Shown here: positions 10,020-28,167 of the stretch, piece after piece
Position numbering within the stretch: position 1 is the first letter of the stretch
Layout of the letters: each line of letters starts with the position of its first letter
NCBI GenBank assembly: GCA_020854065.1
Contig: JADZGF010000016.1
Span: forward strand, 20,784 to 84,783
Direction: 5' to 3'
From: Candidatus Nomurabacteria bacterium
Lineage (GTDB): Bacteria; Patescibacteriota; Minisyncoccia; Phycocordibacterales; SBAW01
Length of the DNA: 64,000 nucleotides
Made by a program: the position numbers and the translations under genes
Notes under the pieces: generated by a model
Seen by the model: the letters and a program-made list of their open reading frames with translations, nothing else
What the model was told of the DNA's origin: nothing
Databases searched by the model: none

Positions 10020-13000
10020 CCTTCTTTTCTTTTCGAACGTCGAGCGACTTGAGTCCCGCTGCTGCCATAATCTCTTTCTGATATTTCTTAGCAACCTCCG
10101 CCAACTCATGAGGGACCACCAACTCGTATACTGGACGATCGGTAATGGTGAGTTTCATCGATTTACGCCATTCTTGTATGGCACGCACGAGCTCGCGCAC
10201 TTGTCCTTCTTCTTTTAACTCTTGGGTTAGCTCAGTATCGAGCACCACTTCGCTTCCCTCTTTTATTTCCTTTACATTGAGTTCTTCTGCCAAGATTGCG
10301 CGCAAATCAGGATCTGCAGGAATGTTTGGTGCACTAAAGCTCGCAAGCGGTTGGCGCACTTTAATATTTGCACGCTCACGCAGTTCAAGTCCTGCACTCG
10401 CAAGATCACGAATAGCTTGCATGTCAGTTAACAATTGCTCGTCAATAATGCCGCTCTCAGGCCACTCCGTAAGATGTACACTTTCTGCGTCATCGGCATT
10501 TTTAACTCGACGATATAGATCGTCAGCAAAGAATGGCATCACGGGCGCCATAGCTTTCGCTACGGTTATCAATACATGTCGCAAGGTTGCAACCGCATCG
10601 GTATTTTCTTTTTCTTTAAAACGATCACGTGAACGGCGCACATACCAGTTGGAAAGGTCTTCAATAAAGTCTAGAAGTGGTCGTGTTGCATTATCAAGTT
10701 CATACGCCTCATAGCCCAGAGTGGTGTCTTTAATAAATTGATTGAGTCGAGCGAGTATCCACCGATCAAGTGGGTGGACACTGTTCGTAGCAGCTTCGGT
10801 GCCATCGGCATAGAGATCATAAAAACTACGCACGTTATCAAGGCGCATCAGTACTTTTTTACTAACTTCATCCACTCCCTGCTCTTTGAAGCGAAGGTCC
10901 TCGCCTCGAATTACTGACGATGAAAGAAGGTAGTATCGCAATGCATCGGCACCATACTTATCAACCACATCCATAGGGTCGGGATAATTGCGTAAGCGTT
11001 TACTCATCTTTTGACCATCCGAGGCCAAGACCAGACCATTTACGATTACATTTTTATACGGTGTGCGATTAAAGAGCGCCGTTCCTAACACAATAAGTGA
11101 GTAGAACCACCCACGAGTTTGATCGAGTCCTTCGGCGATAAAGTCTGCGGGATACCCTTTGGCGCCAAATCCAAAGAAACGCTTCGGATTGAACGTATCT
11201 TTAACAAATGGGTAGTGGTTACTTGCAAACGGCATTGAGCCAGATTCGAACCAACAATCAAACACATCAGGAATGCGTTTCCACTCACCATCAAGCGAGT
11301 TGCCGGTGGGCACTTCATCAATGTATGGTCGATGCAGATCAAGATCATAGTCGCGATTATGCGGAAATAGCACAAATACCAATTCTTTTGGTTCGGCATT
11401 TCTGCGCAATACAAGTTTGTCTGCACTGCGATGTGGTATGCGCGCAGCAATTAAATCCATCATCCACAATGGATATCCATGACTTACGATCAAAATATTT
11501 TTACCCACATAACGACGCTCGATGTCGAACATAAACTCCCCTACTCGTCTGCGCACTTCAAGGCGGGCGCTGTCATCCTCTTTGTCGGTCTCACAAATAC
11601 GCTCATCCACCATTAGTGCCGAGTCGGATAACCCCAGTTCATTTTGGACAATACGCGCAGTTTCTTGGGCACGCACAAAAGGCGACGTGATGACAAGATC
11701 AATGTTTTCTTTTCTGAGATCTGCTGCTGCATGCGCCGCTTGTTTGCGCCCCCTTTCCGTCAAATGATTATCTGGGTCGCCCGTTAAATCGAGAACATTC
11801 GCAACATTATTTTGCGATTCTCCGTGCCGCATCACAAAGTAGCGATTGCCACTTCGGCGCACCATTGCGAGCAATTCGTTGACCGAGCCCACCACTCGCA
11901 CCTCTTTACTCTTGCTATGGCGCCATACTGGCAGTGGTGCACCCCAATAGCGACTGCGCGATATCGCCCAGTCGGGAGCAGATTCAAGTCCATTATTAAA
12001 ACGTCCTTTGCCTACATGCTCAGGCACCCATGTAATCGTGTTGTTTTGAGCAAGGAGTTTATCTTTAAGCGCAGAGACCTTCACAAACCAAGACGTTGCT
12101 GCCCAGTTGAGAAGCGGTGTATCGCACCGCCAACAATGCGGATAGCTGTGCGTGATTTTTTCTTTCTTAAACAAAAGACCACGCTCTTCAAGGTTTGCTG
12201 CGACCTTTTCATCAGTCTCGCGCGGATTACCTTTAGGCTTAACGGCAAGACCTTCAAAATCGGTAACGGTAGAGACAAACTTCCCCTCCTCATTTACATG
12301 ATGAACGAGTGGAATTTTGTGTGCCTGCGCAAGCGCAAGGTCATCAGCGCCAAAGGCCGGTGCAATATGCACGATGCCCGTGCCACTATCTAAAGTAACA
12401 AAGTCAGCCGCATAGATTTTCCATGCATGCGTCTTGTGCTTATGGAGTTCCCCTACAAAGTAATCAAAGGGTGGCAGATATTTTTTACCTACCAACTTTT
12501 TACCCTCAAACTCTTCAACTATCTCGCCATCGGGTGCAAGCGCCTTAGCGGCAATTACCATTCCTTGCGAGGTCTTAATTTTGACATACGTTGCATCAGC
12601 TTTTACTGCTGCAGCCGCGTTCCCTGGTAGGGTCCATGGTGTCGTGGTCCAGATAAGGAGCGATGTGTCAGGATCATCAACAAGCGGGAGTTTAACGGTG
12701 ACCGCTATATCATCGATATCTTTATAACCCTGAGCCACCTCAAAGTTTGAAAGTGTCGTGCCGCAGCGTGGACACAGATGCATAGCTTTGAAGCCTTCGT
12801 ATATAAGACTTTTCTCGTACAGACTCTTAAATGCCCACCATACGCTCTCGGTGTATGGCGTATCCATGGTCTTGTAGTCGTTATCCATGTCTGCCCAACG
12901 ACCAAGACGCGGAATGATGCGCTTCCAATCTGCGACATCTTTCATGATCGAGACACGGGCTGCCTCGTTAAACTTCTCTATGCCGTACTGCTCAATATCA

Positions 13001-13356
13001 CGTTTGCTCTTAAACCCAAGTTCTTTTTCAACCAAGTTTTCAACCGGAAGTCCGTGACAGTCCCATCCCCACTGTCGCGCAACATGATATCCCTGCATGG
13101 TTCGATACCGCGGAATCGCATCTTTAATAGTCGAAGCAAGAATGTGGCCGTAGTGTGGCAAACCGTTTGCAAACGGTGGGCCGTCATAAAAAACATACTC
13201 TCCTTTGGGTGATTCTTTCTGGAGAGACTTCTCAAAAATCCCCTCATTGTTCCAAAACGTTAAAATCCCCTCTTCGCGCTCTGCGAGGGGGCCTTTGGGC
13301 TTGTGTGTTTGAGCATGATGGAGCTCCTCTCCGCCCTGTTTCGGATCATCAACCAT
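10012..13356 (-). CDS. ileS: isoleucyl-tRNA synthetase, type 2, with an embedded histidine-phosphatase (PGAM-like) domain
   Basis: PPFANGLPHYGH HIGH motif (type-2 IleRS, not ValRS), CP1 editing domain, KMSKRL; about 150 aa RHGESQNN...TERGRKQA...ITSPFVRAQETA...IVSHGYPLW inserted between WGAPLPVW and RIPDVFDCWFESG. Confidence 0.85.
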   Translation of the reverse strand: MVDDPKQGGEELHHAQTHKPKGPLAEREEGILTFWNNEGIFEKSLQKESPKGEYVFYDGPPFANGLPHYGHILASTIKDAIPRYRTMQGYHVARQWGWDCHGLPVENLVEKELGFKSKRDIEQYGIEKFNEAARVSIMKDVADWKRIIPRLGRWADMDNDYKTMDTPYTESVWWAFKSLYEKSLIYEGFKAMHLCPRCGTTLSNFEVAQGYKDIDDIAVTVKLPLVDDPDTSLLIWTTTPWTLPGNAAAAVKADATYVKIKTSQGMVIAAKALAPDGEIVEEFEGKKLVGKKYLPPFDYFVGELHKHKTHAWKIYAADFVTLDSGTGIVHIAPAFGADDLALAQAHKIPLVHHVNEEGKFVSTVTDFEGLAVKPKGNPRETDEKVAANLEERGLLFKKEKITHSYPHCWRCDTPLLNWAATSWFVKVSALKDKLLAQNNTITWVPEHVGKGRFNNGLESAPDWAISRSRYWGAPLPVWRHSKSKEVRVVGSVNELLAMVRRSGNRYFVMRHGESQNNVANVLDLTGDPDNHLTERGRKQAAHAAADLRKENIDLVITSPFVRAQETARIVQNELGLSDSALMVDERICETDKEDDSARLEVRRRVGEFMFDIERRYVGKNILIVSHGYPLWMMDLIAARIPHRSADKLVLRRNAEPKELVFVLFPHNRDYDLDLHRPYIDEVPTGNSLDGEWKRIPDVFDCWFESGSMPFASNHYPFVKDTFNPKRFFGFGAKGYPADFIAEGLDQTRGWFYSLIVLGTALFNRTPYKNVIVNGLVLASDGQKMSKRLRNYPDPMDVVDKYGADALRYYLLSSSVIRGEDLRFKEQGVDEVSKKVLMRLDNVRSFYDLYADGTEAATNSVHPLDRWILARLNQFIKDTTLGYEAYELDNATRPLLDFIEDLSNWYVRRSRDRFKEKENTDAVATLRHVLITVAKAMAPVMPFFADDLYRRVKNADDAESVHLTEWPESGIIDEQLLTDMQAIRDLASAGLELRERANIKVRQPLASFSAPNIPADPDLRAILAEELNVKEIKEGSEVVLDTELTQELKEEGQVRELVRAIQEWRKSMKLTITDRPVYELVVPHELAEVAKKYQKEIMAAAGLKSLDVRKEKKDA

Positions 13357-13392: not shown

Positions 13393-13932
13393 TTATGGTC
13401 GTTCAGCTATAAATTGCGATACTTTTTCAAGCGCAATTTTGCGCATAGAAGTTGCGTGTTTATCATCGTCAGACATCTCGGCCCAGGTTTTTTCATACCC
13501 GTCCGGAATAAAAATCGGATCCCACCCAAAACCCATCTCACCACGAGGCGACGGAGCAATAGTGCCCTTTTTCGAGCCGCTAAACGTATGAACGCCTGTT
13601 TCATCACAGATAGCAAACATCACTTCAGCATGGGCCACTCGATTTTCTTTAACTAATTTACAAAGCCCTTCATTCCCAAGAGTCTCTAAAAACCATTTAA
13701 TAAGCGGTCCCGGTAGCGCTTTGAGTTCTTCAAAAACAAGCGAAACATCTTCCACCAACACAGGGGTCTTTACTATCTCATATGCTCGACGCGCTTTGTC
13801 TTCAACTACCTCCTTAAGATCGAGAGATTGAATTTCAATAAGATCGAGCTTTTTGTGCTCGACCGGCATATGAAAGTAGTCGCTTAAATATTTTGCCTTT
13901 CCCGCATTACCTGTAATGAAAGTTAATTTCAT
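13393..13932 (-). CDS. rdgB: non-canonical purine NTP pyrophosphatase (RdgB/HAM1)
   Basis: ITGNAGK...FGWDPIFIP motifs. Confidence 0.85.
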   Translation of the reverse strand: MKLTFITGNAGKAKYLSDYFHMPVEHKKLDLIEIQSLDLKEVVEDKARRAYEIVKTPVLVEDVSLVFEELKALPGPLIKWFLETLGNEGLCKLVKENRVAHAEVMFAICDETGVHTFSGSKKGTIAPSPRGEMGFGWDPIFIPDGYEKTWAEMSDDDKHATSMRKIALEKVSQFIAERP

Positions 13933-14345
13933 AACTCTTTTTTAATATTTATAAAAAAATCTTTATCCTTGTTATGCGTAAGTGGGCCTTCTACTTCTTC
14001 GACATTTACCCAACGGGCTTCTGGATTATGAACATCAACAGGCGCGAGCGTTTCCTCTTTTGTGCGAAAGAGAAACATCGTCATATTTTTTAGTTCTGTA
14101 AGATCGTCCTTTCCATCAAGACCAATCCGGTACCGCGAGTATGTGCCTAGATCTTTAACATACTCAAGATTACTGATTCCTGATTCTTCATATATCTCGC
14201 GTTTTGCCGCTGTTAACGCATCCTCTCCCTCGTCTATGTGTCCTTTTGGTAATGACCACGACCTTCCACCCTGACTCACAACCAACACTTCTCCTTGTTT
14301 GTTGAGAACTACTCCACCAGCACTGTTAGTCTTGCGAGTCTCCAT
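13929..14345 (-). CDS. NUDIX hydrolase
   Basis: Nudix box GHIDEGEDALTAAKREIYEESG; start at METRKT, which gives a 5-nt gap to the end of argS (14350). Confidence 0.7.
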   Translation of the reverse strand: METRKTNSAGGVVLNKQGEVLVVSQGGRSWSLPKGHIDEGEDALTAAKREIYEESGISNLEYVKDLGTYSRYRIGLDGKDDLTELKNMTMFLFRTKEETLAPVDVHNPEARWVNVEEVEGPLTHNKDKDFFINIKKEL

Positions 14346-14349
14346 TAGA

Positions 14350-15903
14350 TTACATCTCCTTGGGCACCGGAATACCCAAAACAGTGAGGCCATCGTGCAA
14401 GGTTTTGATAGTGGCGTATGCGAGCCACACGCCATAGCGCGGATTCGCCCCACCAATAACACGGTTGGCGGCATACCAGGAGTTAAATGCGCCTGCGAGC
14501 TCGGTTAAATAGGTGGTGATGTAGTGTGGTTCCATCTCACGAGCAGCACGCGCCACCACGTCAGGATAGTGAATAAGTACGCGCTCGAGTACACTGGCAT
14601 GTTCGGGTATATCATCGGTACTTGGCTCAATACCTGCCTCTTTTGCTGCCTGCACTAAAGAATGTGCGCGGGTATGTGCATATTGCAGATACGGACCAGA
14701 ATCACCTTCAAGTGAAAGAGATTTTTCTGGATCAAAGATAATATCTTTGCTACTCCCTTGTTTGAGTACCGCATACTTAATTGCACCAACTGCAATCATC
14801 TCGGCAGTTTTCTCTGCCTCCGCAAGTTCTCGACCCTGCATTTTTTCTTTTGCAGCAGCGATGAGGTCATTAAGCAATGACTCTCCGGTGATAACATTGC
14901 CGGTACGCGAGGACATTTTCCCTTCTGCAAACCGCATCATGCCGTGCGAGCGATGCGTCAGCTTACCCGAAAGCTCAGGAAATACTTTCTGTATCGCATC
15001 AAAGACCACATCGAAAAAGCCGTTTTGCTCGTTGGCGGTCACCGTGAGATAGATATCAGACGGTACTTTTTCTTTTTTCAGCTTGGCTAACCCGAGCTCT
15101 TTTGCCTCATATGTCGGCAACTTTTTCTGAGTTACAAACACACGAGTATGAGCACCGTGGTATACGAGCGCTCCTTCGCTCTCTTGGAAAAGCTCGGGAT
15201 GCGCGCTGACTATTTCAAGTCCAATGAGGCCCGATTCGCTTTCAAAAAAGTAATGGTCGAATGTGGTACCTAGTTTTTTGTAGATTTCCTCAAAATGCGC
15301 AAGTGATTCTGCCCGCCCTTGGTCATACAGTGTGTTAACGGCGACATCAGAGCGCTCATACACTTTTTTATTAATCTCGTCTATCTCATCTTTATGTGCA
15401 TCGTATTGTGCAGCACCGTACACATACGCTTCGCCCCAAGAGCTTTCTGGCTTTTGCATCTTCCCCCAGATAGCCTTTGCAACATGGGGGCCAACATCGC
15501 CTTGATAGTTAGCACGTACAACGGTAGCTCCTGACACCTCAAGAACACGAGCAATCGCCTCGCCCACCGCATTACTCATGAGGTGTCCAATATGGAATTC
15601 TTTAAACGGATTAGGGTCAGTGTACTCAGCAAGTATTTTCTTACCTGCGTACTGTGCGGGTATTTCTGCCGGTTGTGGCACCAAACTCTTACGCGACACG
15701 TGGAAGTTAATAAACTTCCCTACCACTTCTATCTTTTCAATCCCTTCAATGGAGAGTTTTGCGGCAAGTTCCTGTGCATCGAGTTTGTTCACGAGTGCAG
15801 CGTTGGTCGAATAGTCGCCATGACTTAAATCGCGTGGGCGCTCAACTACAAAGTTGGCTGCTCCTGCATCACGCAACGCCTGCTCTATCCTCTCTCGAAT
15901 CAT
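14350..15903 (-). CDS. argS: arginyl-tRNA synthetase
   Basis: HIGH (FHIGHLMSNAVGE), class I fold, DALR anticodon-binding domain. Confidence 0.9.
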   Translation of the reverse strand: MIRERIEQALRDAGAANFVVERPRDLSHGDYSTNAALVNKLDAQELAAKLSIEGIEKIEVVGKFINFHVSRKSLVPQPAEIPAQYAGKKILAEYTDPNPFKEFHIGHLMSNAVGEAIARVLEVSGATVVRANYQGDVGPHVAKAIWGKMQKPESSWGEAYVYGAAQYDAHKDEIDEINKKVYERSDVAVNTLYDQGRAESLAHFEEIYKKLGTTFDHYFFESESGLIGLEIVSAHPELFQESEGALVYHGAHTRVFVTQKKLPTYEAKELGLAKLKKEKVPSDIYLTVTANEQNGFFDVVFDAIQKVFPELSGKLTHRSHGMMRFAEGKMSSRTGNVITGESLLNDLIAAAKEKMQGRELAEAEKTAEMIAVGAIKYAVLKQGSSKDIIFDPEKSLSLEGDSGPYLQYAHTRAHSLVQAAKEAGIEPSTDDIPEHASVLERVLIHYPDVVARAAREMEPHYITTYLTELAGAFNSWYAANRVIGGANPRYGVWLAYATIKTLHDGLTVLGIPVPKEM

Positions 15904-15920: not shown

Positions 15921-17015
15921 TTAGAGCGTCTTCTGGCTAAGTGGCGCTGTGACTGAAGCAGGAGTGGCGGTAAAGCCAACACGGCCAATGAGTTGACCTT
16001 GTGCGGTCTCAACCGAGCAGCGCCACTCTCCTGGGGTAAGCAGAGAGACACGGCTAAAACCGCGGTACCCACCGTCACGCCCTCCTGCTATAGGGAACGA
16101 TATACGTGACTGGGTGCGCCACTCTCGTGTACTTTCGTCATACTTCTCCCACTTGTGATAAATAGGGGCTTCGAGATTAGTCGGTGCAAAGACCGAAGAG
16201 AAACAAAATGCTTCCCTCCCCCCTGCCCCATCACCAATGGTGTAGGTACTTGCAGAGCTTCGATAGAATTCCCACCACGGCTCTCTTTCATAGAGCACCA
16301 CATAATCTCCATCTGAACGTTTCAATACCGAATGATAGACACCGATCGTTTTAAGCGAGAGCGGTACCGGCGGAATAACGTTAATGAAATACAGTAAGTT
16401 AAAACAGATAAAGATAAGCCCCACGATACCGCTCACTATCTGGAGACCTTCAAAGTCTTTGCCGCGGAACACGAGGAAAAAAAGTGCGGTAAGGAAGATG
16501 GCGATAAACACCAAGCTTGTGAGCCCCGAGAGTATAAAGGGCCACAGTCCGATCGATTTGGTGATAAACGTCGGGACCGCAATAACGCAATACGATAAAA
16601 GCAAAAAGTAATACACGCCCACATTAAACCGAAGCAGTGAGTACCGATTGCGCAGATATTCATTTCCCAAAATAAGTGCGACCAGCATCGCGAGAAACAC
16701 TGCACTTCCCGCCAAGGTACCCGAGCGCCCATAGAGCACCAACAAGTTACTTGCCAGACCACCGAAACAGAATTGCAAAATAAGGAGCATAAAGAACGGC
16801 TCCACGTCTTGTCGGCGACGTTTTTGGATGTTGAGAAGAATGATGAACGCTCCTGCAACAATGAGATAAAAGAGGAGAAGGAGATTATTAAAAACGCTAT
16901 CAGGTCGGTCAGCAATTATAAGGTCAAAGAAAAAGCCGGCAGCTAATGCGCCAAGACCGATATGGTGCTCGTAGCGCTCCCAGAATTTGAAGAGCTTGGT
17001 GGAGCGGATATCCAT
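15921..17015 (-). CDS. polytopic membrane protein with C-terminal soluble domain, unknown function
   Basis: 364 aa; 6-7 TM helices then ~150-aa hydrophilic domain. Confidence 0.4.
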   Translation of the reverse strand: MDIRSTKLFKFWERYEHHIGLGALAAGFFFDLIIADRPDSVFNNLLLLFYLIVAGAFIILLNIQKRRRQDVEPFFMLLILQFCFGGLASNLLVLYGRSGTLAGSAVFLAMLVALILGNEYLRNRYSLLRFNVGVYYFLLLSYCVIAVPTFITKSIGLWPFILSGLTSLVFIAIFLTALFFLVFRGKDFEGLQIVSGIVGLIFICFNLLYFINVIPPVPLSLKTIGVYHSVLKRSDGDYVVLYEREPWWEFYRSSASTYTIGDGAGGREAFCFSSVFAPTNLEAPIYHKWEKYDESTREWRTQSRISFPIAGGRDGGYRGFSRVSLLTPGEWRCSVETAQGQLIGRVGFTATPASVTAPLSQKTL

Positions 17016-17022: not shown

Positions 17023-18315
17023 TTATACGAAGCTCTCAGGGATAGGATGTGCTACAGCAATTTCCTTCACCTCTTTTGCAATAGCCTCGAGCCGACTGAG
17101 ATCTTGTCGATATTCAAGTGCATCGAGCATGAGTGTTGCAACACGCGCACATTCTGGCTCTTTGAGACCTCGTGTAGTCATCGCAGGCGTACCAAAACGG
17201 ATACCAGAGGGATCCATGGGAGAGCGCTCATCGTCAGCGATGACATTTTTATTGAGCGTAATCCCTACCCTATCCAAAATCTCCTCAGCCTCTTTACCAC
17301 TAACACCAAATTGCGTTACATCTGCAAGAATTAAGTGATTGCTTGTACCGCCACCGATCATGCGCACCTTGCGCTCTGCAAACACTTCTTCCATCGACTT
17401 TGCGTTTTTAAGTATCTGCGCCGCATAGGTTTTAAAGTTTGGATGGAGTGCTTCGCCAAACGCAACCGCTTTCGCAGCAATCGTATGCATTAAGGGGCCA
17501 CCCTGAAGTCCTGGGAACACACTTTTATCTATTTTCTTCGCAATTTCCTCACTCTCACGCACAAGAATCAGTCCCCCACGTGGACCGCGCAATGTCTTAT
17601 GCGTCGTGCTCGTCATCACATCAAAACCAACATCGAAAGGGTTTTTATGCACGCCACCTGCGATAAGGCCAGCAATGTGTGCAATATCGGCTACCGCGTA
17701 TGCCCCCACCTCTTTAGCAATCGCAACAAACTTTTCATAGTCGAGTTCGCGGCTGTACGCGGAGAAACCAGCAAGAATAATTTTTGGTTTGTGTTCTCGT
17801 GCTAAAGCAGCCAGGGCATCGTAGTCAATTTCGCCAGTAGCACTGTCTTTCATTTTGTAGCGAACAAAGTTAAACAACTTCGCAACATGCGTAACCGGGT
17901 GCCCGTGCGTTAAGTGCCCCCCATGAGAGAGATCCATTCCGAGCACCGTGTCGCCTGGATGGAGCAGTGCAAAGTAAAGTGCAACATTGGCATCTGCACC
18001 TGAGTGCGGCTGTACATTGGCATACTGGGCATTAAAAAGTTTCTTCGCACGCTCACGTGCCAACTCCTCCACTGCGTCGGTGTACTCTTGCCCGCCGTAG
18101 TAGCGGTTGCCGGGGTAGCCTTCGGCATACTTATTCGTAAGGACGCTGGATTGTGCTTCGCGCACCGCGTGACTTACATAGTTCTCGCTTGGAATAAGCT
18201 CAAGGCCTTGGGCCTGTCGTGCCTCCTCCCCTACGAGCGTGTCGTATACCTCTTTGTCTTGTCTTTGCACAAATTCGTACATATCAGTAGGATGGGCCAA
18301 GACTCGCACAAACAC
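17023..18315 (-). CDS. glyA: serine hydroxymethyltransferase
   Basis: LELIPSENYVS, TSTTHKTLRGPRGG PLP-lysine motif; true start may be an internal Met (MYEFVQ). Confidence 0.9.
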   Translation of the reverse strand: MFVRVLAHPTDMYEFVQRQDKEVYDTLVGEEARQAQGLELIPSENYVSHAVREAQSSVLTNKYAEGYPGNRYYGGQEYTDAVEELARERAKKLFNAQYANVQPHSGADANVALYFALLHPGDTVLGMDLSHGGHLTHGHPVTHVAKLFNFVRYKMKDSATGEIDYDALAALAREHKPKIILAGFSAYSRELDYEKFVAIAKEVGAYAVADIAHIAGLIAGGVHKNPFDVGFDVMTSTTHKTLRGPRGGLILVRESEEIAKKIDKSVFPGLQGGPLMHTIAAKAVAFGEALHPNFKTYAAQILKNAKSMEEVFAERKVRMIGGGTSNHLILADVTQFGVSGKEAEEILDRVGITLNKNVIADDERSPMDPSGIRFGTPAMTTRGLKEPECARVATLMLDALEYRQDLSRLEAIAKEVKEIAVAHPIPESFV

Positions 18316-18328
18316 AAGGGAGATACCC

Positions 18329-19213
18329 GTGCAGAATTTCTACAGACCGCTCTCCGAACGGACACCCGATACACAATACAGGGATAACCTGCAGCAAATT
18401 CTGACGAGCGGCAGGTTCATCAAGGAGACGCAACAAGGCAAAGGCGCTCTCACCTGTTTCGGCACCACACAGAGAATGGTCTTCGATCTGCGCAACGGCT
18501 TTCCTCTTATCACAAGTCGAAAGCTGGGGTTTCGGATGCCCATTCGCGAGATAACCGCATTCATGAACGGTGTGCGTGATATCGACGAACTGAGTAATGT
18601 TTGGGGCTGCAAGTTCTGGGACGACTACAAAGGCCGGGGCAAAGAGTTCGATATGGAACCGAACGATCTTGGCCCTGGTTCCTACGGAGCTGCATTCGCG
18701 GCATATCCTATGCCTGGCGGTGGTACCTGGAACCAGTTCGAGCATGTGGTGCGGCAAGTGCGCGAATTCCCATATTTGCGGACTATCCGTGTCACACCCT
18801 GGATCCCCTTCTACACTGCGCGCGGGCATCGCAAGGTAATCGTGGCTCCGTGCCACGGCGACCTGTTTTTCCGTGTGATCGACAACGAACTGCATATGGA
18901 GATGATTCAGCGGTCCTCCGACATGGCACTTGGCGTACCCAACAATACGGTGCAGTATGCAGCACTCCTTCTCATGCTCTGCCAAGTCACCGGACGAGAT
19001 CCTGGTTTGTTCATTCACACGCTCGTCGATGCTCATATCTACGAGGACCAGGTGCCGTACATGGAGGAGCTGGTGAAGCGCACGCCGCTGCCTTTCCCGA
19101 GCATGAAGGTCGATCCAAGTGTGACCGATCTTTTCAAGTTCCGGGCGGAACATTTTACTCTCTATGAGTATGAGGCCCATCCGGCGATGCCGGACATCCC
19201 TTACTCGCCCTAG
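18329..19213 (+). CDS. thyA: thymidylate synthase (ThyA) family enzyme, divergent
   Basis: PCH nucleophile motif (APCHGDLFF), QRSSDMALGVPNNTVQYAALL and DAHIY motifs; GTG start 7 nt after GGAGAT, chosen to avoid 77-nt overlap with glyA. Confidence 0.75.
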   Translation: MQNFYRPLSERTPDTQYRDNLQQILTSGRFIKETQQGKGALTCFGTTQRMVFDLRNGFPLITSRKLGFRMPIREITAFMNGVRDIDELSNVWGCKFWDDYKGRGKEFDMEPNDLGPGSYGAAFAAYPMPGGGTWNQFEHVVRQVREFPYLRTIRVTPWIPFYTARGHRKVIVAPCHGDLFFRVIDNELHMEMIQRSSDMALGVPNNTVQYAALLLMLCQVTGRDPGLFIHTLVDAHIYEDQVPYMEELVKRTPLPFPSMKVDPSVTDLFKFRAEHFTLYEYEAHPAMPDIPYSP

Positions 19214-19229
19214 CACTTCCTACACCTTC

Positions 19230-19260
19230 GAGCCGCCCCATAAGGGCGGCTCTTGTTTTT
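19230..19260. terminator. rho-independent terminator after thyA
   Basis: GAGCCGCCC-cataa-GGGCGGCTC followed by ttgttttt. Confidence 0.6.
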
Positions 19261-19306
19261 ATGCACAACTTTAAGATATGGTTTCTACGGAAAAGGAGCT
19301 TCAGAT

Positions 19307-19774
19307 ATGGCAGAGAAGAAAGTCGATACCGCGAACGCCGGTATGGTCGACCGAGATGGGTATAACAAGGTGCTGGAGAATATCGCAGAAGCTGGGTACT
19401 GCCCTTTCTGCGAAGAACACTTCCTCAAAAACCATACCCAACCGATCCTCCGTAAAGGAGAACATTGGCTGGTGACGGAAAACTTCCGACCATACGAAGG
19501 AAGTACCCACCACTTCCTGGTCGTGTGTCTCACTCATATCGAGCATATCGAAGACATGACCGCAGGGATGGTGCTCGAGGTATTCGAGCACTACAACTGG
19601 TTGTGCAAGGAGTACGGACTGACCGGAGCAACCTTACTCTTCCGTTCAGGAGACACCGATATGACTGGCGCCACTGTGAGACATCTGCACTATCAGGTCA
19701 TCGTCGGCATCAAGCGTCGCAGAAATGACAGCGAGGTTATTAAAGCAGTTGTTGGCTTTAAAGCCGACCGTTAA
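19307..19774 (+). CDS. HIT-superfamily protein of the GalT/Ap4A-phosphorylase branch (HxHxQ motif)
   Basis: CPFCEEH...VRHLHYQVIVG (H-x-H-x-Q); start at Met19 with AAAGGAG RBS, downstream of thyA terminator. Confidence 0.55.
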   Translation: MAEKKVDTANAGMVDRDGYNKVLENIAEAGYCPFCEEHFLKNHTQPILRKGEHWLVTENFRPYEGSTHHFLVVCLTHIEHIEDMTAGMVLEVFEHYNWLCKEYGLTGATLLFRSGDTDMTGATVRHLHYQVIVGIKRRRNDSEVIKAVVGFKADR

Positions 19775-19781
19775 TATAGGA

Positions 19782-19812
19782 ATCCCCCGGCCTCGTCATG
19801 AGGTCGGGGGAT
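19782..19812. terminator. bidirectional 13-bp hairpin between HIT-like gene and deaminase gene
   Basis: ATCCCCCGGCCTC-gtcat-GAGGTCGGGGGAT. Confidence 0.5.
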
Positions 19813-20650
19813 TATTCATTTGTACTCGTATCACTTCGACATTGAAGGCCTTGAGCGTCTCAAGAGCCGCAACAAGTGAGTACCCTTCTGCGAAGTAGAG
19901 CCGACGCAAGCCCGCGCTGATGCATGCACTCGCACACGGCGGACACGGAAAGGTGGTGACATAGAGGTCACAGCCCTCTGTCTTGATGCCACGACGAGCC
20001 GCCGCAGTGAGCACAGCGACTTCCGAATGCAATGCAAGCGAAAAGTCGATATGCTGTCCAGCATCAAAGTTGCTGCGTGGATCACCAAAGAGGTAGGCCG
20101 TCTGTTCGGAAGGAAGGTGTTGATTGAAGGAAACCAGCAACGGTTTCCCATCCCGCACAAGCACCGAACCAACCTGTCTCCACCAGTCAGGACTCCGCTG
20201 AGCCGTCTCGGACGCCGATCGCATGAAAGTGCGGTCGAACTCCGTAAACGACACCTCGGTGTCTACATCAGGCACTTGCTTGTTGAGCGTTGCAGTACGA
20301 TCGTACCGAAGTCGCCACCGACCATCAAACGTCACCTGCGCGTTGGGGAAATATGCATCCGCCAAAACTCGAGAGACATCTTCATCCGGCATCACGATAT
20401 CGGAATGAACCACGAAGGAGAGCTTATCCTTCGTCAGAACGCTCACCTGATCAAATATCCCAAGGGATCTGATCATGGTTGCAGTCTCTTCGGGTGTCGG
20501 CGCGGGTAAGTTTCTGGTAAGCGAGGAGAACTCGCTCACAAGATCCGCACCGAGCACCCAAAGCGTACCTCCTGGATACGCGCGGAAGAATTTGAGATAT
20601 CCTCCGTGCGGTGCCGCTACATACGCGACAAGGGTTTTACACCCTTCCAT
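19796..20650 (-). CDS. cytidine/deoxycytidylate deaminase-fold protein with ~190-aa N-terminal domain of unknown function
   Basis: C-terminal HSEVAVL...DLYVTTFPCPPCASACISAG zinc-deaminase motif (H[AS]E...PCxxC); N-terminal half unrecognised. Confidence 0.6.
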   Translation of the reverse strand: MEGCKTLVAYVAAPHGGYLKFFRAYPGGTLWVLGADLVSEFSSLTRNLPAPTPEETATMIRSLGIFDQVSVLTKDKLSFVVHSDIVMPDEDVSRVLADAYFPNAQVTFDGRWRLRYDRTATLNKQVPDVDTEVSFTEFDRTFMRSASETAQRSPDWWRQVGSVLVRDGKPLLVSFNQHLPSEQTAYLFGDPRSNFDAGQHIDFSLALHSEVAVLTAAARRGIKTEGCDLYVTTFPCPPCASACISAGLRRLYFAEGYSLVAALETLKAFNVEVIRVQMNNPPTS

Positions 20651-21326
20651 TTTTGATCTCCTTCAAAACCTTGAGCATCGCAGACTCGACCATGTCTGCA
20701 GCTTGAGCCATGCCCTCCAATGTGAGACGGCTAAGCCGTGCTGAAGAGTTGTCATTGAGTTGCTGCTGAAGGTTAACGATCTGCCCACAATATATTCCTT
20801 GGGCTTTGAGTTTCTTCTCGTCGTTGGTGGATTCCGATATGACGCGTACGTCATGCGGCAGAATTTTGGGCAGTTCCGCGAGCTTGCGTTCGATCGTAAC
20901 GATGTCGGTGCTCCGCGTATGCGCGATCTGTCTCGCCCGTTCCATTTCTGGAACAAAGGGACGTTTCGGTCCCTTGCGAGCACGAGTCAACTCATCGGAA
21001 TCGACTGCAACAACAGTGATCACATGCTCGGCTTTGGGAAATTTTTCTCCTGCCTTGTCCTTCCCAAGTTCGATGTAGTTTTCGTGACCAAGATGTTTGA
21101 GATCCCACGTGCCCATAATGAGCACGATCACGCATCCCATGGAGCGCAAGATATCGACGAGCTTAATCAGTTCGTCGTGATTTTCCATGAAGCGGTCGTC
21201 AAACCGAGCCGTCCCCGAAATGATCCGTTGAGCACGGAGCATCAGAGGATCGGGCTTTCGAGGACGATACTTGGAGCGCCCGGTACCATTGCCAGGTTTT
21301 CCATTCACGTGCCTTTTTACCATCAC
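20637..21326 (-). CDS. HxGH-type nucleotidyltransferase-fold protein (cytidylyl/adenylyl-transferase-like)
   Basis: GTWDLKHLGHENYIELGK resembles the (T/H)xGH signature of class I nucleotidyltransferases; rest unknown. Confidence 0.5.
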   Translation of the reverse strand: MMVKRHVNGKPGNGTGRSKYRPRKPDPLMLRAQRIISGTARFDDRFMENHDELIKLVDILRSMGCVIVLIMGTWDLKHLGHENYIELGKDKAGEKFPKAEHVITVVAVDSDELTRARKGPKRPFVPEMERARQIAHTRSTDIVTIERKLAELPKILPHDVRVISESTNDEKKLKAQGIYCGQIVNLQQQLNDNSSARLSRLTLEGMAQAADMVESAMLKVLKEIKNGRV

Positions 21327-21441
21327 TCACCTCTCAAAGGACAGAGTTATTCCGTAAAAACCTTACCAATACGCAGATGGGTTGTGCAAAGGGATTTTGA
21401 TAGGTATAGTTTTGCCGGAAATCATTCCAGAGGAGCGGCAT

Positions 21442-21978
21442 ATGACAGAGAAACCTGTCCGCCTTGATATCTGCATCATTGCCGCTATGACACCAAGCGG
21501 TGTTATTGGGAGATCCGGCACCTTGCCGTGGCGTATGCCAAGCGATCTGCAACGGTTTCGGCACCTCACACTGGGGCACAGTGTGGTTATGGGGTACAAG
21601 ACCTTTGCCGAGATTATTGCTCGCAGAGGCGCTCCACTTACGGAGCGCATAAACTATGTAGTGACAAACCACCATGTGGATCAAGTGCGTCAAAGTGGGG
21701 CTACGCCACTGCGCACTCTCTACGGAGGTGTTGCTGACACATGGCTCAACGCAAAGGAATATTACATTATTGGTGGCCGAAGTCTCTACGAAGAGGCATT
21801 AAGCCGAGCAGACCGGATGTTGCTGACCATAATCGAAGCTGATGTTGTAGGAGATGTCTACTTCCCCACCATCGATTACTCTCAATGGCATCTCGTTCGT
21901 GAGACAGAAATTACTCGTTTTGATCCACGAGACGAACATCCAAGCCGCTTCAAAGAATACGAGCGTATTAAGCGCTAG
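21442..21978 (+). CDS. folA: dihydrofolate reductase
   Basis: ICIIAAM...GVIGRSGTLPW...VVMGYKTF DHFR motifs; start at MTEKP. Confidence 0.85.
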   Translation: MTEKPVRLDICIIAAMTPSGVIGRSGTLPWRMPSDLQRFRHLTLGHSVVMGYKTFAEIIARRGAPLTERINYVVTNHHVDQVRQSGATPLRTLYGGVADTWLNAKEYYIIGGRSLYEEALSRADRMLLTIIEADVVGDVYFPTIDYSQWHLVRETEITRFDPRDEHPSRFKEYERIKR

Positions 21979-21985: not shown

Positions 21986-22022
21986 GACCCGTCCGGAATT
22001 TCCGGACGGGTCATTTCTTTTT
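21986..22022. terminator. bidirectional terminator after folA
   Basis: GACCCGTCCGGAA-a-TTCCGGACGGGTC then atttcttttt. Confidence 0.6.
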
Positions 22023-23614: not shown

Positions 23615-24421
23615 TTAGCGAATTTCGTAGGTAACTGAGACGTTTGAGACGACTTTATTCTCCCCGGTTGAGATCTCTGGCGCCTTGTTAGAGGCATCCT
23701 GAGCCATGGTTTCCATGCCGCCGCGACCATATGCCACTGGGTACGGATAGCCGCCGTTTGATTCAGTAAAGGAGACTACACGGACCAGAGATACACCGAG
23801 CTCTCGTGCGAGCTTCTCTGCCTGAGATTTTGCATCAGCAATAGCTGCTCCACGTGCCTCATCCTCGCCCTGATGTGGATCATCAAAGGTAAAGTTAAGA
23901 CCCGAGACCTCGGTTGCACCGCGGGTCCCTACCCCTGCGAGAAGATCCCCTGCCTGGGCAATGTCACGCACCTTAACTGTGGTTGATTGACGTACCTCAT
24001 AGCCGCGCAACACCTGGCGACCTGATGGGCAGCTGCCATTGAGGCAGGCCTCTTGCACCCAGTCATATTGCGGGTAGATCGAGTAATTGCTGGTCTGAAT
24101 ATCACGTTCAGCGACACCCACCTCTTTGAGGTACGCGACCGTAGCGTTGCTCTTAGTAGTAGCTTCTGTTTGTGCGGCTTCGACAGTCGGTTTTAGAGAA
24201 ACGACTGAGTACGTAAAAGTTGCAAGGTCAGGCACACCACTTGCCTCTCCATATCCAGAGACGGTGATTGTGTTAGCGGGCATAACTCCGGCGCCGATGT
24301 AGCGCATAGCCATAACCTCGCTAAATGCCTTAAGACCCAAAAAGACCGCTAACAGAATCACGACAACAAATACCGCTGTACGTGTTCGATCGCCCAAAGG
24401 ACCGTTAAATAATGCGTCCAT
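23615..24421 (-). CDS. SIMPL (DUF541) domain protein
   Basis: N-terminal TM, LRGYEVRQSTTVKVRD...ARGAAIADAKSQAEKLARELG. Confidence 0.7.
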   Translation of the reverse strand: MDALFNGPLGDRTRTAVFVVVILLAVFLGLKAFSEVMAMRYIGAGVMPANTITVSGYGEASGVPDLATFTYSVVSLKPTVEAAQTEATTKSNATVAYLKEVGVAERDIQTSNYSIYPQYDWVQEACLNGSCPSGRQVLRGYEVRQSTTVKVRDIAQAGDLLAGVGTRGATEVSGLNFTFDDPHQGEDEARGAAIADAKSQAEKLARELGVSLVRVVSFTESNGGYPYPVAYGRGGMETMAQDASNKAPEISTGENKVVSNVSVTYEIR

Positions 24422-26018: not shown

Positions 26019-26093
26019 TGGGGTGCCTACAGGGAATTGAACCCTGATCACCGCTGCCACAGAGCGGAGCTTTACCATTAAGCTATAGGCACC
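26019..26093 (-). tRNA. tRNA-His (GTG) with encoded G-1 and CCA
   Basis: Hand-folded cloverleaf: G-1 GTGCCTA..anticodon loop CTGTGGC..T-arm CAGGG TTCAATT CCCTG..TAGGCAC C CCA. Confidence 0.85.
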
Positions 26094-26611: not shown

Positions 26612-26643
26612 GTTTGTGGATATACAGAAGCCTCTCTAAAACC

Positions 26644-27630: not shown

Positions 27631-27693
27631 CGCATCATTGTATCAGTGCTGGTAAATTTCCCTAAAATCTCTATACTGAAGCGTGTTCGAAAT

Positions 27694-27778
27694 GCCCAGG
27701 TGGCGGAATTGGTATACGCGTATGCTTGAGGTGCATATGCCGCAAGGCTTGGAGGTTCGAGTCCTCTCCTGGGCACCA
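27694..27778 (+). tRNA. tRNA-Leu (GAG), class II long variable arm, CCA encoded
   Basis: GCCCAGG acceptor, anticodon loop TTGAGGT, variable arm TGCCGCAAGGCT, GGTTCGAGTCC T-loop; followed by GACGTCCCCG/CGGGGACGT hairpin. Confidence 0.85.
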
Positions 27779-27830
27779 CGGAAATAAAGACGTCCCCGCA
27801 CATGCGGGGACGTTTGCGTATATGCAAAGA

Positions 27831-28127: not shown

Positions 28128-28140
28128 ACGTTTGCAACTA

Positions 28141-28166: not shown

Positions 28167-28167
28167 A

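What the first reader, a model, noticed from the sequence alone, without database searches (positions are those of the whole stretch)
17023..21978. Thymidylate-cycle cassette (glyA-thyA-folA) with three non-canonical inserted genes
SHMT (glyA), a ThyA-family enzyme and DHFR (folA) are clustered, which is the classical dTMP loop. Three unusual genes are interleaved between them. One is a GalT-branch HIT protein (HxHxQ motif, nucleotidyl phosphorylase/transferase type). One is a cytidine/dCMP-deaminase-fold protein with an unrecognised ~190-aa N-terminal domain. One is an HxGH class-I nucleotidyltransferase-like protein. A dCMP deaminase feeding dUMP to ThyA is expected. The added nucleotidyltransferase and HIT-phosphorylase are not expected. 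They hint at a salvage or nucleotide-modification side pathway, or unusual regulation of dNTP precursors.
Basis: partly seen in the sequence, partly recalled or inferred. Interest (0 to 1): 0.55.

Follow-up and report, generated by a model that had tools for sequence, protein, structure and literature searches.

The report
Extended thymidylate-synthesis gene module
Next to the ordinary genes for making the DNA letter T, this bacterium has three uncharacterised nucleotide enzymes that stay locked to those genes in hundreds of species, which points to an undescribed way of feeding or controlling thymidylate synthesis.

Summary
Window 17023-21978 (a Candidatus Nomurabacteria contig) encodes glyA, thyA, a HIT protein, a two-domain dCMP-type deaminase, a cytidylyltransferase-family enzyme (NTase) and folA.

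- The deaminase's extra N-terminal domain is about 135 aa, not 190. It has no Pfam or PDB sequence match, but its model has a cytidylyltransferase-like fold with an invariant PHxGY motif.
- The HIT protein is a generic single-domain HIT, not specifically GalT-branch. The Q of HxHxQ varies (Q/H/N).

Main result: the three odd genes are an obligate part of the module.
- In 88 loci, NTase lies directly upstream of the deaminase in 88/88, usually overlapping it.
- HIT is present in 86/88 and ThyA in 84/88.
- Three genomes carry DHFR-HIT fusion proteins.
- The same five genes occur in an unrelated 72 %-GC soil lineage, in identical order in 24/24 loci.
- A phage-like contig carries the NTase-deaminase pair alone.

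The module's ThyA always lacks phosphate-binding Arg127'. The deaminase lacks the canonical allosteric motif.

Function is inferred, not shown. Most likely NTase plus deaminase bring deoxycytidine nucleotides (probably dCTP) to the deoxyuridine level by nucleotidyl transfer, and HIT releases dUMP for ThyA. I found no paper describing this.

The parts
17023..18282 (-). glyA, serine hydroxymethyltransferase. A variable member of the module, adjacent in 36/88 loci.
   Evidence: Pfam SHMT 3.2e-154 and NCBIfam NF000586 576 bits. The ATG at 18282 fits the profile start. Neighbourhood count.
18329..19213 (+). thyA, a divergent thymidylate synthase. All catalytic residues are kept. Phosphate-binding Arg127' is replaced by Thr and Arg21 by Gln.
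   Evidence: Pfam 201.8 bits; TIGR03284 153.1 above its 108.35 cut-off. 32 % identity to E. coli ThyA. Residue census over 84 orthologues. GTG start with AAGGGAGA upstream.
19230..19252 (+). GC-rich hairpin followed by a T-run, between thyA and the HIT gene. It looks like a terminator or attenuator.
   Evidence: Pattern scan only: 9-bp stem with 8 GC pairs.
19307..19774 (+). Single-domain HIT-superfamily protein, 155 aa. Motifs: CPFC...W..T.N..PY...H...R.G....TG..V.HLHYQ. A core member of the module.
   Evidence: Family profile against PDB: HIT proteins at 2.4e-9 (5uvm), Fhit 1.4e-5, Ap4A phosphorylase 4.5e-4, GalT 1e-3. Invariant C32, F34, C35, Y63, H77, R113, G115, H126, H128. Next to thyA or folA in 86/88 loci and fused to DHFR in 3.
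19781..19813 (.). 15-bp-stem hairpin between the convergent HIT and deaminase genes. It overlaps the deaminase stop codon and is a likely bidirectional terminator.
19796..20245 (-). C-terminal dCMP-deaminase-type zinc deaminase domain (residues about 136-284). HAE and PCPPC are intact. The allosteric G(Y/W)N(A/G) motif is replaced by (A/S)(F/Y)NxH. A family-specific loop reads YxxGDPRSxF.
   Evidence: Pfam PF00383 59.9 bits. Foldseek best hits are dCMP deaminases 4p9e/4p9c, 2hvv/2hvw, 1vq2, 2w4l and 7fh4, E about 1e-9 to 1e-10. Invariant residues. Motif census.
20246..20650 (-). N-terminal domain of the deaminase (residues 1-135). It has a cytidylyltransferase-like alpha/beta fold with invariant PHxGY after strand 1, an MPDEDV motif and a WRLRW motif. 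It matches no Pfam family.
   Evidence: AF2 model: pLDDT 84, pTM 0.76. Foldseek top hits: HldC 5xf2, Fom1 cytidylyltransferase domain 5x3d, 3glv, FAD synthetase, TagD (E 2e-3 to 0.16, TM 0.5-0.6). No sequence hit in PDB. 522 cluster representatives; every hit longer than about 260 aa among the best 150 is 262-309 aa, the length of the fusion, and the shorter ones look like fragments.
20637..21323 (-). Cytidylyltransferase-family nucleotidyltransferase (NTase). Its catalytic motifs are intact: GxxDxxHxGH, VDSD, RKGxxRP, ExER, TSTSARIR. It is translationally coupled to the deaminase.
   Evidence: Profile against PDB: ECT 3elb 1.1e-21, HldC 5x9q 7e-19, CCT, TagD. Invariant residues. Directly upstream of the deaminase in 88/88 loci; median gap -4 nt.
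21442..21978 (+). folA, dihydrofolate reductase. Within 8 kb in 59/88 loci; always present in the high-GC lineage.
   Evidence: Pfam DHFR_1 5.2e-40. ATG preceded by GAGGAG. Counts.
21986..22012 (.). Perfect 12-bp-stem hairpin after folA. It looks like a terminator on both strands.

Best explanation
This is a self-contained, vertically and horizontally conserved thymidylate-synthesis module made of two convergent units.

Unit 1:
- It is a translationally coupled pair: a catalytically intact cytidylyltransferase-family enzyme (NTase), and a dCMP-type zinc deaminase carrying a second, degenerate cytidylyltransferase-like domain at its N-terminus.
- I infer that the two cytidylyltransferase-like parts associate, in the way the tandem domains of ethanolamine-phosphate cytidylyltransferase do.
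- I infer that the pair takes deoxycytidine nucleotides at the triphosphate level. NTase would transfer the dCMP moiety of dCTP to a phosphate acceptor and release PPi. The deaminase would convert the cytosine to uracil.

Unit 2:
- It is thyA, often with folA, followed by a HIT enzyme.
- I infer that the HIT enzyme, through its His nucleophile, cleaves the nucleotidyl conjugate or another dU nucleotide and releases dUMP.
- The divergent ThyA then methylates dUMP, while DHFR and SHMT recycle the folate.

Net reaction proposed: dCTP -> dUMP + PPi + NH3 without free dUTP. This is the same outcome as the unrelated bifunctional dCTP deaminase-dUTPase.

Shown: the gene content, the motifs, the fold assignments, the obligate linkage and the fusions.

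Inferred: complex formation, the substrates, the order of steps and the acceptor molecule.
For: Linkage:
- NTase is directly upstream of the fusion deaminase on the same strand in 88/88 loci. HIT is present in 86/88 and ThyA in 84/88.
- The gap from NTase stop to deaminase start has a median of -4 nt; 50 of 71 pairs overlap.
- About a quarter of the loci lack the NusG/L11/ArgRS context, yet the module is kept there.
- In a 72 %-GC soil lineage the order is NTase> deaminase> <HIT <DHFR <ThyA in 24/24 loci. Every gene is present wherever enough DNA is available.
- A phage-like contig carries NTase plus the fusion deaminase alone.
- DHFR-HIT fusion proteins occur in three genomes and are only 26-34 % identical to one another.

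Chemistry:
- NTase keeps HxGH, RKGxxRP and the TSTSARIR motif invariant. Its best matches are CTP/ATP:phospho-alcohol transferases.
- The N-domain has the same fold, but its motif has decayed to PHxGY.
- The deaminase keeps HAE and PCxxC and is nearest to dCMP deaminases.
- The deaminase lacks the G(Y/W)N(A/G) allosteric motif.
- Its catalytic core scores better against anti-phage dCTP deaminase models than against ComEB.
- Two precedents show DCTD-type deaminases with an extra N-terminal domain acting on dCTP: DcdV and CDADC1.
- HIT keeps the nucleophile histidine. IMG annotates the soil-lineage orthologues as ATP adenylyltransferase or Ap4A hydrolase.
Against: - There is no biochemical evidence of any kind, and the acceptor molecule is unknown.
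- The N-domain fold match is weak (Foldseek E 2e-3, TM 0.54-0.59). Profile-profile comparison with NTase is not significant.
- A canonical dUTPase lies next to the module in 24/88 loci, so avoiding dUTP cannot be the whole rationale.
- A two-enzyme relay is more complicated than a single pyrophosphatase.
- The phage contig and locus L070 carry NTase plus deaminase with no HIT within 6-8 kb. HIT may therefore not be needed to finish the reaction.
- Loss of ThyA Arg127' has a precedent in a normal, active dUMP-dependent enzyme. It does not by itself indicate an unusual substrate.
Confidence: 0.4

Rival explanations
1. Regulatory reading. The deaminase is an ordinary dCMP deaminase. Its lost allosteric site has been replaced by cytidylyltransferase-fold sensor parts: the fused N-domain, plus NTase as a partner subunit. 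These bind dCTP or dTTP and tune flux into dUMP. The HIT protein is a general nucleotide house-cleaning enzyme that merely rides in the thyA operon.
For: - The canonical G(Y/W)N(A/G) allosteric motif is absent.
- The cytidylyltransferase fold is a (d)CTP-binding fold.
- The N-domain has a decayed catalytic motif, PHxGY, as expected for a binding-only domain.
- Translational coupling suggests a complex.
Against: - NTase keeps every catalytic motif invariant down to about 30 % identity and across three lineages. That argues for catalysis rather than mere binding.
- HIT is as tightly linked as ThyA itself and is fused to DHFR in three genomes. This is hard to explain for a bystander.
Confidence: 0.25
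2. Fully carrier-bound pathway. NTase loads dCMP from dCTP onto a carrier phosphate. The deaminase and also the Arg127'-less ThyA then work on the carrier-linked nucleotide. A phosphorylase-type HIT enzyme, or reversal of NTase, releases dTDP or dTTP, bypassing dUTP and thymidylate kinase.
For: - ThyA lacks Arg127' in 84/84 orthologues and Arg21 in 82/84. This thins the phosphate pocket.
- HIT resembles Ap4A-phosphorylase-type enzymes in its N..PY motif and in IMG's naming.
- All four core genes travel together.
Against: - A thymidylate synthase lacking Arg127' is a normal dUMP enzyme in Vibrio.
- Arg21 is retained in the high-GC lineage.
- No evidence exists that thymidylate kinase is missing.
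- The scheme is costly and has no precedent.
Confidence: 0.1
3. No functional connection. NTase makes an envelope or cofactor precursor such as ADP-heptose, CDP-glycerol or FAD. HIT is a generic HINT. Both sit here only because the genomes are collinear.
For: - Databases name NTase as rfaE domain II, heptose-1-phosphate adenylyltransferase or cytidyltransferase-like.
- Many Parcubacteria loci share the NusG/L11/ArgRS flanks.
Against: - The linkage is 88/88 and includes overlapping reading frames.
- It is retained in loci with other flanks, in a 72 %-GC lineage with entirely different neighbours, and in a phage-like contig.
- DHFR-HIT fusions exist.
- The window protein scores 33.9 against the rfaE domain II model, whose cut-off is 181.5.
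Confidence: 0.07
4. Anti-phage dC-depletion system of the DcdV/AvcD or dCTP-deaminase type.
For: The deaminase core matches the PADLOC dCTPase model (E 7e-20) and the NCBIfam anti-phage dCTP deaminase model (E 1e-18). It has a two-domain architecture like DcdV.
Against: - The score of 67 is far below the 400-bit cut-off.
- The N-domain is not a P-loop kinase.
- The genes sit at a fixed housekeeping position beside thyA/folA in very small genomes, not in defence islands.
- A phage carries the pair itself.
Confidence: 0.03

Closest known systems
Classical thymidylate cycle clusters (thyA-folA operons, glyA; bifunctional DHFR-TS of protozoa and plants)
   Same: ThyA, DHFR and SHMT are present with intact catalytic residues. 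thyA and folA are adjacent or overlapping in many loci.
   Different: Three further enzymes (NTase, two-domain deaminase, HIT) are obligate members. Here the fusion partner of DHFR is HIT, not ThyA. ThyA lacks Arg127'.
DcdV/AvcD, the bacterial two-domain dCTP/dCMP deaminase (P-loop kinase domain plus DCD domain)
   Same: An N-terminal nucleotide-handling domain is fused to a dCMP-deaminase-type domain. The allosteric motif is divergent. In lysates it funnels dCTP to dUMP. The deaminase cores are similar in sequence.
   Different: The N-domain here has a cytidylyltransferase fold, not a P-loop. A separate catalytic NTase partner exists. The context is housekeeping thymidylate synthesis, not defence. 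The score is far below the family cut-off.
Vertebrate CDADC1 (d)CTP deaminase
   Same: A DCTD-derived catalytic domain and an inactive N-terminal architectural domain. The substrate has shifted from dCMP to dCTP, and canonical allostery is lost.
   Different: The extra domain of CDADC1 is a dead deaminase domain. There is no NTase or HIT partner.
Bifunctional dCTP deaminase-dUTPase (DCD-DUT) of archaea and mycobacteria
   Same: It has the same net reaction as proposed here: dCTP -> dUMP + PPi + NH3 without free dUTP. That reaction is established knowledge; its application to this module is my inference.
   Different: A completely different fold (dUTPase-like trimer), a single polypeptide, and no nucleotidyl-transfer intermediate.
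Cytidylyltransferase family: ECT (two tandem domains), HldC/RfaE domain II, CCT, TagD, Fom1 cytidylyltransferase domain
   Same: NTase shares the HxGH and C-terminal (I/T)STS..R motifs and matches these structures. The fused N-domain model matches the same folds. The pairing of one canonical and one divergent domain recalls ECT.
   Different: It is below every specific equivalog cut-off. It has family-specific N- and C-terminal extensions. The acceptor substrate is unknown. The partner domain is fused to a deaminase.
HIT superfamily: HINT, Fhit, Ap4A phosphorylase Rv2613c, GalT
   Same: It has the CxxC...H...HxHx(H/Q) pattern with the nucleophile histidine, and profile matches to solved HIT proteins.
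   Different: It cannot be assigned to one branch. The third motif position varies. It is linked or fused to thymidylate-cycle enzymes, a context I found in no paper in the searched library.
VAAP-clade thymidylate synthase (Vibrio parahaemolyticus)
   Same: It lacks the fourth phosphate-binding arginine (Arg127' replaced by Gly), is still an active dUMP-dependent enzyme, and has a raised Km.
   Different: Here the replacement is Thr/Ser/Val. Arg21 is also lost in the Patescibacteria members. The change co-travels with NTase, deaminase and HIT.

Membership tests
Thymidylate synthase ThyA (EC 2.1.1.45) | Score above the curated family thresholds | tested here: met
   Pfam PF00303 201.8 bits (cut-off 24.3). 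NCBIfam TIGR03284 153.1 (cut-off 108.35).
Thymidylate synthase ThyA (EC 2.1.1.45) | Catalytic and base- or sugar-binding residues, E. coli numbering: C146, H147, E58, W80, Y94, Q165, R166, S167, D169, N177, H207, Y209 | tested here: met
   Conserved in 80-84 of 84 module ThyA sequences, including the window protein.
Thymidylate synthase ThyA (EC 2.1.1.45) | Four arginines binding the dUMP phosphate (R21, R126', R127', R166) | tested here: not met
   R127' is T/S/V in 84/84. R21 is absent in 82/84. R126' is kept in 79/84 and R166 in 84/84. An active enzyme without R127' is known.
Thymidylate synthase ThyA (EC 2.1.1.45) | Reductive methylation of dUMP that produces dihydrofolate | not testable with these tools
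   Supported only indirectly by the co-conserved DHFR.
dCMP deaminase (DCTD/ComEB type) | Zinc and proton-shuttle motifs HxE and PCxxC | tested here: met
   H208, E210, C236 and C239 are invariant in 42 sequences.
dCMP deaminase (DCTD/ComEB type) | Fold closest to solved dCMP deaminases | tested here: met
   Foldseek top 15 hits are all dCMP or dCMP/dCTP deaminases, E 3.7e-10 to 3e-8.
dCMP deaminase (DCTD/ComEB type) | Allosteric dCTP/dTTP site motif G(Y/W)N(A/G) | tested here: not met
   The family has (A/S)(F/Y/H)N(R/T/Q/K..)H. G is at position 1 in 2/42 and A at position 4 in 2/42.
dCMP deaminase (DCTD/ComEB type) | Single-domain protomer of about 150-190 aa; equivalog score | tested here: not met
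   284 aa with an extra 135-aa domain. ComEB TIGR02571 51.7 bits against a cut-off of 219.45.
dCMP deaminase (DCTD/ComEB type) | Substrate is dCMP | not testable with these tools
Anti-phage dCTP deaminase (NF041025; PADLOC dCTPase; DcdV/AvcD) | Curated score cut-off and an N-terminal P-loop kinase-like domain | tested here: not met
   67.2 bits against a cut-off of 400, covering only residues 181-268. The N-domain model is a cytidylyltransferase fold.
Cytidylyltransferase family (PF01467/TIGR00125) | HxGH motif and the C-terminal (R)TxGISTT / ISSTxxR-type motif | tested here: met
   Invariant H78, G80, H81; TSTSARIR conserved.
Cytidylyltransferase family (PF01467/TIGR00125) | Score above the family thresholds and a match to solved members | tested here: met
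   PF01467 21.8 (cut-off 21) and TIGR00125 29.7 (cut-off 27.7). Profile against PDB: 3elb 1.1e-21, 5x9q 7e-19.
Heptose-1-phosphate adenylyltransferase (RfaE domain II / HldC) | Equivalog score | tested here: not met
   TIGR02199 33.9 bits against a cut-off of 181.5. The database names given by sources are therefore unsupported.
HIT superfamily | Histidine triad with the nucleophile His; profile match to HIT proteins | tested here: met
   H126 and H128 invariant. Family profile against PDB 2.4e-9. 25/31 members match Pfam HIT. The window protein alone is below the Pfam cut-off (17.4 against 21.5).
GalT branch of the HIT superfamily | Two tandem HIT-like half-domains (about 350 aa) and a conserved HxHxQ | tested here: not met
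   A single 155-aa domain. The Q position is Q/H/N across orthologues. GalT matches are partial at E about 1e-3.
Dihydrofolate reductase / serine hydroxymethyltransferase | Score above the family thresholds | tested here: met
   DHFR_1 137.2 bits. SHMT 513.8 bits, NF000586 576.3 (cut-off 335).

The most novel reading that the evidence does not exclude
The module encodes a previously unknown nucleotide-handle route to thymidine nucleotides. A cytidylyltransferase loads the dCMP moiety of dCTP onto a carrier phosphate. A deaminase with a carrier-binding pseudo-transferase domain converts it to the dU form. The Arg127'-less ThyA may methylate it while it is still bound. A HIT transferase or phosphorylase, or reversal of the transferase, then releases dUMP, dTDP or dTTP. 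This would be a dUTP-free and possibly kinase-independent path from dCTP to thymidine nucleotides, shared by Patescibacteria, a soil lineage and a phage.
Probability: 0.12. Interest if true: 0.9.

Novelty: new variant of a known kind. Interest (0 to 1): 0.62.

Why it matters
dTMP synthesis is one of the best-studied and most drug-targeted pathways, and its gene set is considered complete. Here three further enzymes are as tightly bound to thyA as folA is:
- an uncharacterised cytidylyltransferase-family clade;
- a dCMP-type deaminase with an undescribed domain architecture;
- a HIT enzyme that is sometimes fused to DHFR.

They occur together in at least 484 species-level genomes of the Candidate Phyla Radiation, in an abundant high-GC soil lineage, and partly in a phage.

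If the inferred function holds, the module answers a practical gap. Organisms that rely on a dCMP-type deaminase need some way to bring ribonucleotide-reductase products (dCDP or dCTP) down to the monophosphate level without flooding the cell with dUTP.

The work also gives a fold and a context to a domain that currently has no family. It flags database names such as 'ADP-heptose synthase' and 'ATP adenylyltransferase' as probably wrong for these proteins.

Tried and rejected
- Homology of the N-domain by sequence was not found. There is no PDB hit (best E 0.92) and no Pfam hit. hhalign against the NTase profile gave probability 0.3 %. The relationship therefore rests on a weak fold match plus the position of one motif.
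- Phage collections: there is no tblastn match for NTase or the N-domain in INPHARED, and no match for the N-domain pattern in IMG/VR. Only one IMG/VR contig carries the pair.
- I looked for a further conserved gene between the deaminase and HIT. The inserts there are unrelated to each other.
- I looked for a riboswitch or other Rfam element in the region. There is none; only tRNAs elsewhere in the window.
- Literature: no paper combines dCMP deaminase with Patescibacteria, or Parcubacteria with thymidylate and deaminase. Nothing relevant came up for HIT together with DHFR and thymidylate synthase.
I used the NTase of the high-GC lineage instead.
- I tried to name the high-GC lineage by exact protein look-ups. 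The sources give no organism names.
- I first read ThyA Arg21 as absent in all orthologues. A recount showed it is kept in the two high-GC loci. With the Vibrio precedent, I do not use the arginine losses as strong evidence for an unusual ThyA substrate.
- A hypermodified-base pathway (hydroxymethylase) was rejected. N177, the C-terminal segment and the co-conserved DHFR all fit reductive methylation.

Full report
**What is in the window**

The region 17023-21978 holds six genes on alternating strands. The window comes from a Candidatus Nomurabacteria (Patescibacteria) contig: the deaminase is 100 % identical to 'hypothetical protein IT396_03385'.

Profile searches give:
- SHMT: 513.8 bits.
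- A ThyA-family protein: Pfam 201.8 bits; NCBIfam thymidylate synthase TIGR03284 153.1, above its cut-off of 108.35.
- DHFR: 137.2 bits.
- A 284-aa protein whose residues 137-254 match dCMP_cyt_deam_1: 59.9 bits.
- A 228-aa cytidylyltransferase-like protein: PF01467 21.8 against a cut-off of 21; TIGR00125 29.7 against 27.7.
- A 155-aa protein with only a sub-threshold HIT match: 17.4 against 21.5.

Start codons with Shine-Dalgarno-like sequences refine the limits:
- glyA 17023-18282 (-)
- thyA 18329-19213 (+)
- HIT 19307-19774 (+)
- deaminase 19796-20650 (-)
- nucleotidyltransferase (NTase) 20637-21323 (-), overlapping the deaminase start by 14 nt
- folA 21442-21978 (+)

Strong hairpins lie after thyA, between the convergent HIT and deaminase genes, and after folA. 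No Rfam element lies in the region.

**The three unusual proteins**

NTase:
- An alignment of 31 homologues keeps GxxDxxHxGH, VDSD, RKGxxRP, ExER and TSTSARIR invariant or nearly so.
- Its profile matches solved cytidylyl- and adenylyltransferases: ECT 3elb 1.1e-21, HldC 5x9q 7e-19, then 3glv, CCT and TagD.
- It is therefore a catalytically intact member of the cytidylyltransferase family.
- It falls far below every specific equivalog cut-off, for example rfaE domain II at 33.9 against 181.5.

Deaminase, C-terminal half:
- HAE and PCPPC are invariant.
- The AlphaFold model (pLDDT 77) is closest to dCMP deaminases of cyanophage S-TIM5, Streptococcus mutans, T4, human and PBCV-1.
- The allosteric-site motif that defines regulated dCMP deaminases is G(Y/W)N(A/G). 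Here it is (A/S)(F/Y/H)NxH.
- The loop that follows carries a family-specific YxxGDPRSxF motif, modelled with low confidence.
- The catalytic core scores higher against anti-phage dCTP deaminase models (67-69 bits over about 70-90 residues) than against ComEB (51.7 bits). All of these are below their cut-offs.

Deaminase, N-terminal 135 residues:
- There is no Pfam hit and no PDB sequence hit.
- Modelled alone (pLDDT 84, pTM 0.76), the domain is a five-stranded alpha/beta fold.
- Its best Foldseek matches are HldC, the Fom1 cytidylyltransferase domain, 3glv, FAD synthetase, pantothenate synthetase and TagD, with E 2e-3 upward and TM 0.5-0.6.
- Its invariant PHxGY lies at the junction of strand 1 and helix A, where that fold carries HxGH.
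- Sequence-level homology to the neighbouring NTase is not detectable.
- A profile of this domain finds 522 cluster representatives among 1.8 billion. Among the best 150, every hit longer than about 260 aa is 262-309 aa, the length of this fusion. The shorter ones look like fragments, and no other architecture appears.

HIT protein:
- Orthologues keep CxFC, W..T.N..PY, H77, R113.G115 and H126.H128. The residue after the triad varies as Q/H/N.
- The family profile matches bacterial HINT-type proteins best (2.4e-9). Fhit follows at 1.4e-5, Ap4A phosphorylase at 4.5e-4 and GalT at 1e-3, partial.
- It is a bona fide HIT enzyme, but it cannot be placed in the GalT branch.

**Is the clustering meaningful?**

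First survey:
- A scan of one genome per species found 484 species encoding the fusion deaminase. The best 80 are all Patescibacteria.
- I searched these 80 loci, seven loci fetched earlier and the window with HMMs built here.
- NTase lies immediately upstream of the deaminase on the same strand in 88/88.
- HIT is present in 86/88 and ThyA in 84/88. Most misses are contig ends; L070 is a true exception.
- DHFR is within 8 kb in 59, SHMT in 36 and dUTPase in 24.
- The gap from NTase stop to deaminase start has a median of -4 nt, and 50 of 71 pairs overlap.
- ThyA is followed by HIT within 100 nt in 62 of 77 pairs. In most of the remaining pairs DHFR lies in between.
- Many loci share the secE-nusG-rplK / argS surroundings (L11 in 64/88, ArgRS in 43/88). 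Part of the conservation is therefore collinearity, but the four-gene core persists in the loci without those flanks.

Three further observations go beyond collinearity:
- DHFR and HIT are one polypeptide in L056, L080 and L082. These fusion proteins are only 26-34 % identical to each other.
- A 72 %-GC lineage common in soil metagenomes has quite different neighbours: tricorn protease, MFS transporter, MarR, PabB. Wherever the contig is long enough it carries the deaminase (49/49), HIT (41/41), DHFR (33/33) and ThyA (28/28). The order is NTase> deaminase> <HIT <DHFR <ThyA in 24/24 loci, with 4-nt overlaps between thyA, folA and HIT in the 93.7-kb contig of that lineage whose gene calls were read.
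- A 158-kb IMG/VR contig with phage-type genes (Tad3 anti-Thoeris, Rv2179c-like exonuclease) carries NTase followed by the fusion deaminase, with all motifs kept. It has no ThyA or HIT within 6 kb.

Taken together, NTase plus deaminase behave as an autonomous pair, and HIT behaves as a partner of ThyA and DHFR.

**ThyA**

- All catalytic, base-binding and sugar-binding residues are conserved.
- Of the four arginines that hold the dUMP phosphate, Arg127' is T/S/V in 84/84.
- Arg21 is absent in the 82 Patescibacteria sequences and present in the two high-GC ones.
- A thymidylate synthase with Gly at Arg127' is active on dUMP with a raised Km (PMC6005164).
- I therefore treat this as a signature of the module, not as proof of a different substrate.

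**How it most likely works**

Shown:
- The families, motifs and folds.
- The obligate pairings, the fusions, and the spread over three kinds of genome.

Inferred:
- The canonical chemistries of the three enzymes can be chained, and the chain ends in ThyA's substrate.
- Cytidylyltransferase-family enzymes make NMP-O-P-X from NTP plus a phosphate ester, releasing PPi. dCMP-type deaminases convert C to U on the nucleotide. HIT enzymes cleave NMP-X through an NMP-histidine intermediate.
- I propose that NTase docks onto the pseudo-transferase N-domain of the deaminase, much as the two tandem domains of ECT pair.
- The pair would then process deoxycytidine nucleotides at the triphosphate level, and HIT would release dUMP next to ThyA and DHFR.
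- The net reaction would be dCTP -> dUMP + PPi + NH3.

Two characterised proteins show that adding an N-terminal domain to a DCTD-type deaminase goes with use of dCTP and loss of classical allostery:
- DcdV: P-loop kinase domain plus deaminase, both required, funnels dCTP to dUMP in lysates.
- CDADC1.

The main rival is regulatory: the cytidylyltransferase-fold parts would sense dCTP or dTTP in place of the lost allosteric site. The strict conservation of the NTase catalytic motifs and the tight linkage and fusion of HIT argue against a purely regulatory reading, but they do not exclude it.

Weaknesses of my proposal:
- The fold match is weak.
- The acceptor is unknown.
- dUTPase is often present nearby.
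- The phage contig and L070 lack a nearby HIT.

**Comparison with what is known, and novelty**

- The thymidylate cycle itself is textbook.
- I found no description of this NTase-deaminase-HIT association.
- The proteins carry generic or probably wrong names in databases: 'dCMP deaminase', 'rfaE ... nucleotidyltransferase', 'ATP adenylyltransferase', 'hypothetical'.
- I class the finding as a new variant of a known kind: a known pathway with an undescribed, conserved set of accessory enzymes and a new domain architecture.
- If a carrier-bound nucleotide route were demonstrated, it would be a new pathway.

Noticed in passing
window 10012-13356 (-); also L001 11935-12858 onward: A 1114-aa class I aminoacyl-tRNA synthetase of the Ile/Val/Leu type carries an inserted histidine-phosphatase domain (His_Phos_1) at residues 507-591. 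A related Paceibacterota genome has the same architecture.
   Followed up: no
window 13393-13932 (-) and 13929-14474 (-): A Ham1/RdgB-type non-canonical NTP pyrophosphatase and a NUDIX hydrolase overlap by 4 nt, about 3 kb from the thymidylate module. These are further nucleotide house-cleaning genes in the neighbourhood.
   Followed up: no
L056 8918-9898 (-), L080 2530-3702 (-), L082 8863-9816 (-): These are DHFR-HIT fusion proteins, with DHFR at the N-terminus and HIT at the C-terminus. They share only 26-34 % identity and come from genomes of 40-53 % GC. I found no paper describing this domain combination in the searched library.
   Followed up: partly
L088 5143-7421 (IMG/VR UViG_3300037483_001116, 158 kb): On a phage-like contig the NTase-deaminase pair sits directly after a Tad3 (anti-Thoeris) homologue, with no ThyA or HIT within 6 kb. 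Whether the phage uses the pair for nucleotide supply or for counter-defence is open.
   Followed up: partly
L007, L113-L192 (soil metagenome contigs, median GC 72 %): An abundant, unnamed high-GC soil lineage carries the complete five-gene module in a fixed order. The source databases gave no organism names.
   Followed up: partly
window 23615-24421 (-): A SIMPL/DUF541 protein lies near the module in 39/88 Patescibacteria loci. It also lies 3.6 kb from thyA in the high-GC contig. This may be coincidence.
   Followed up: no
window 34186-35430 (+): A 414-aa Mur-ligase-family protein could be a folylpolyglutamate synthase (FolC) rather than a cell-wall ligase. That would be relevant to folate use, but I did not check it.
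   Followed up: no
window 26019-36632: Eight tRNA genes (His, Leu, Val, Arg x3, Ser, Lys) are scattered over 10 kb among ribosomal and recombination genes.
   Followed up: no
window 15921-17015 (-): A DUF2914 membrane protein sits between argS and glyA. It recurs beside the module in other Paceibacterota loci.
   Followed up: no
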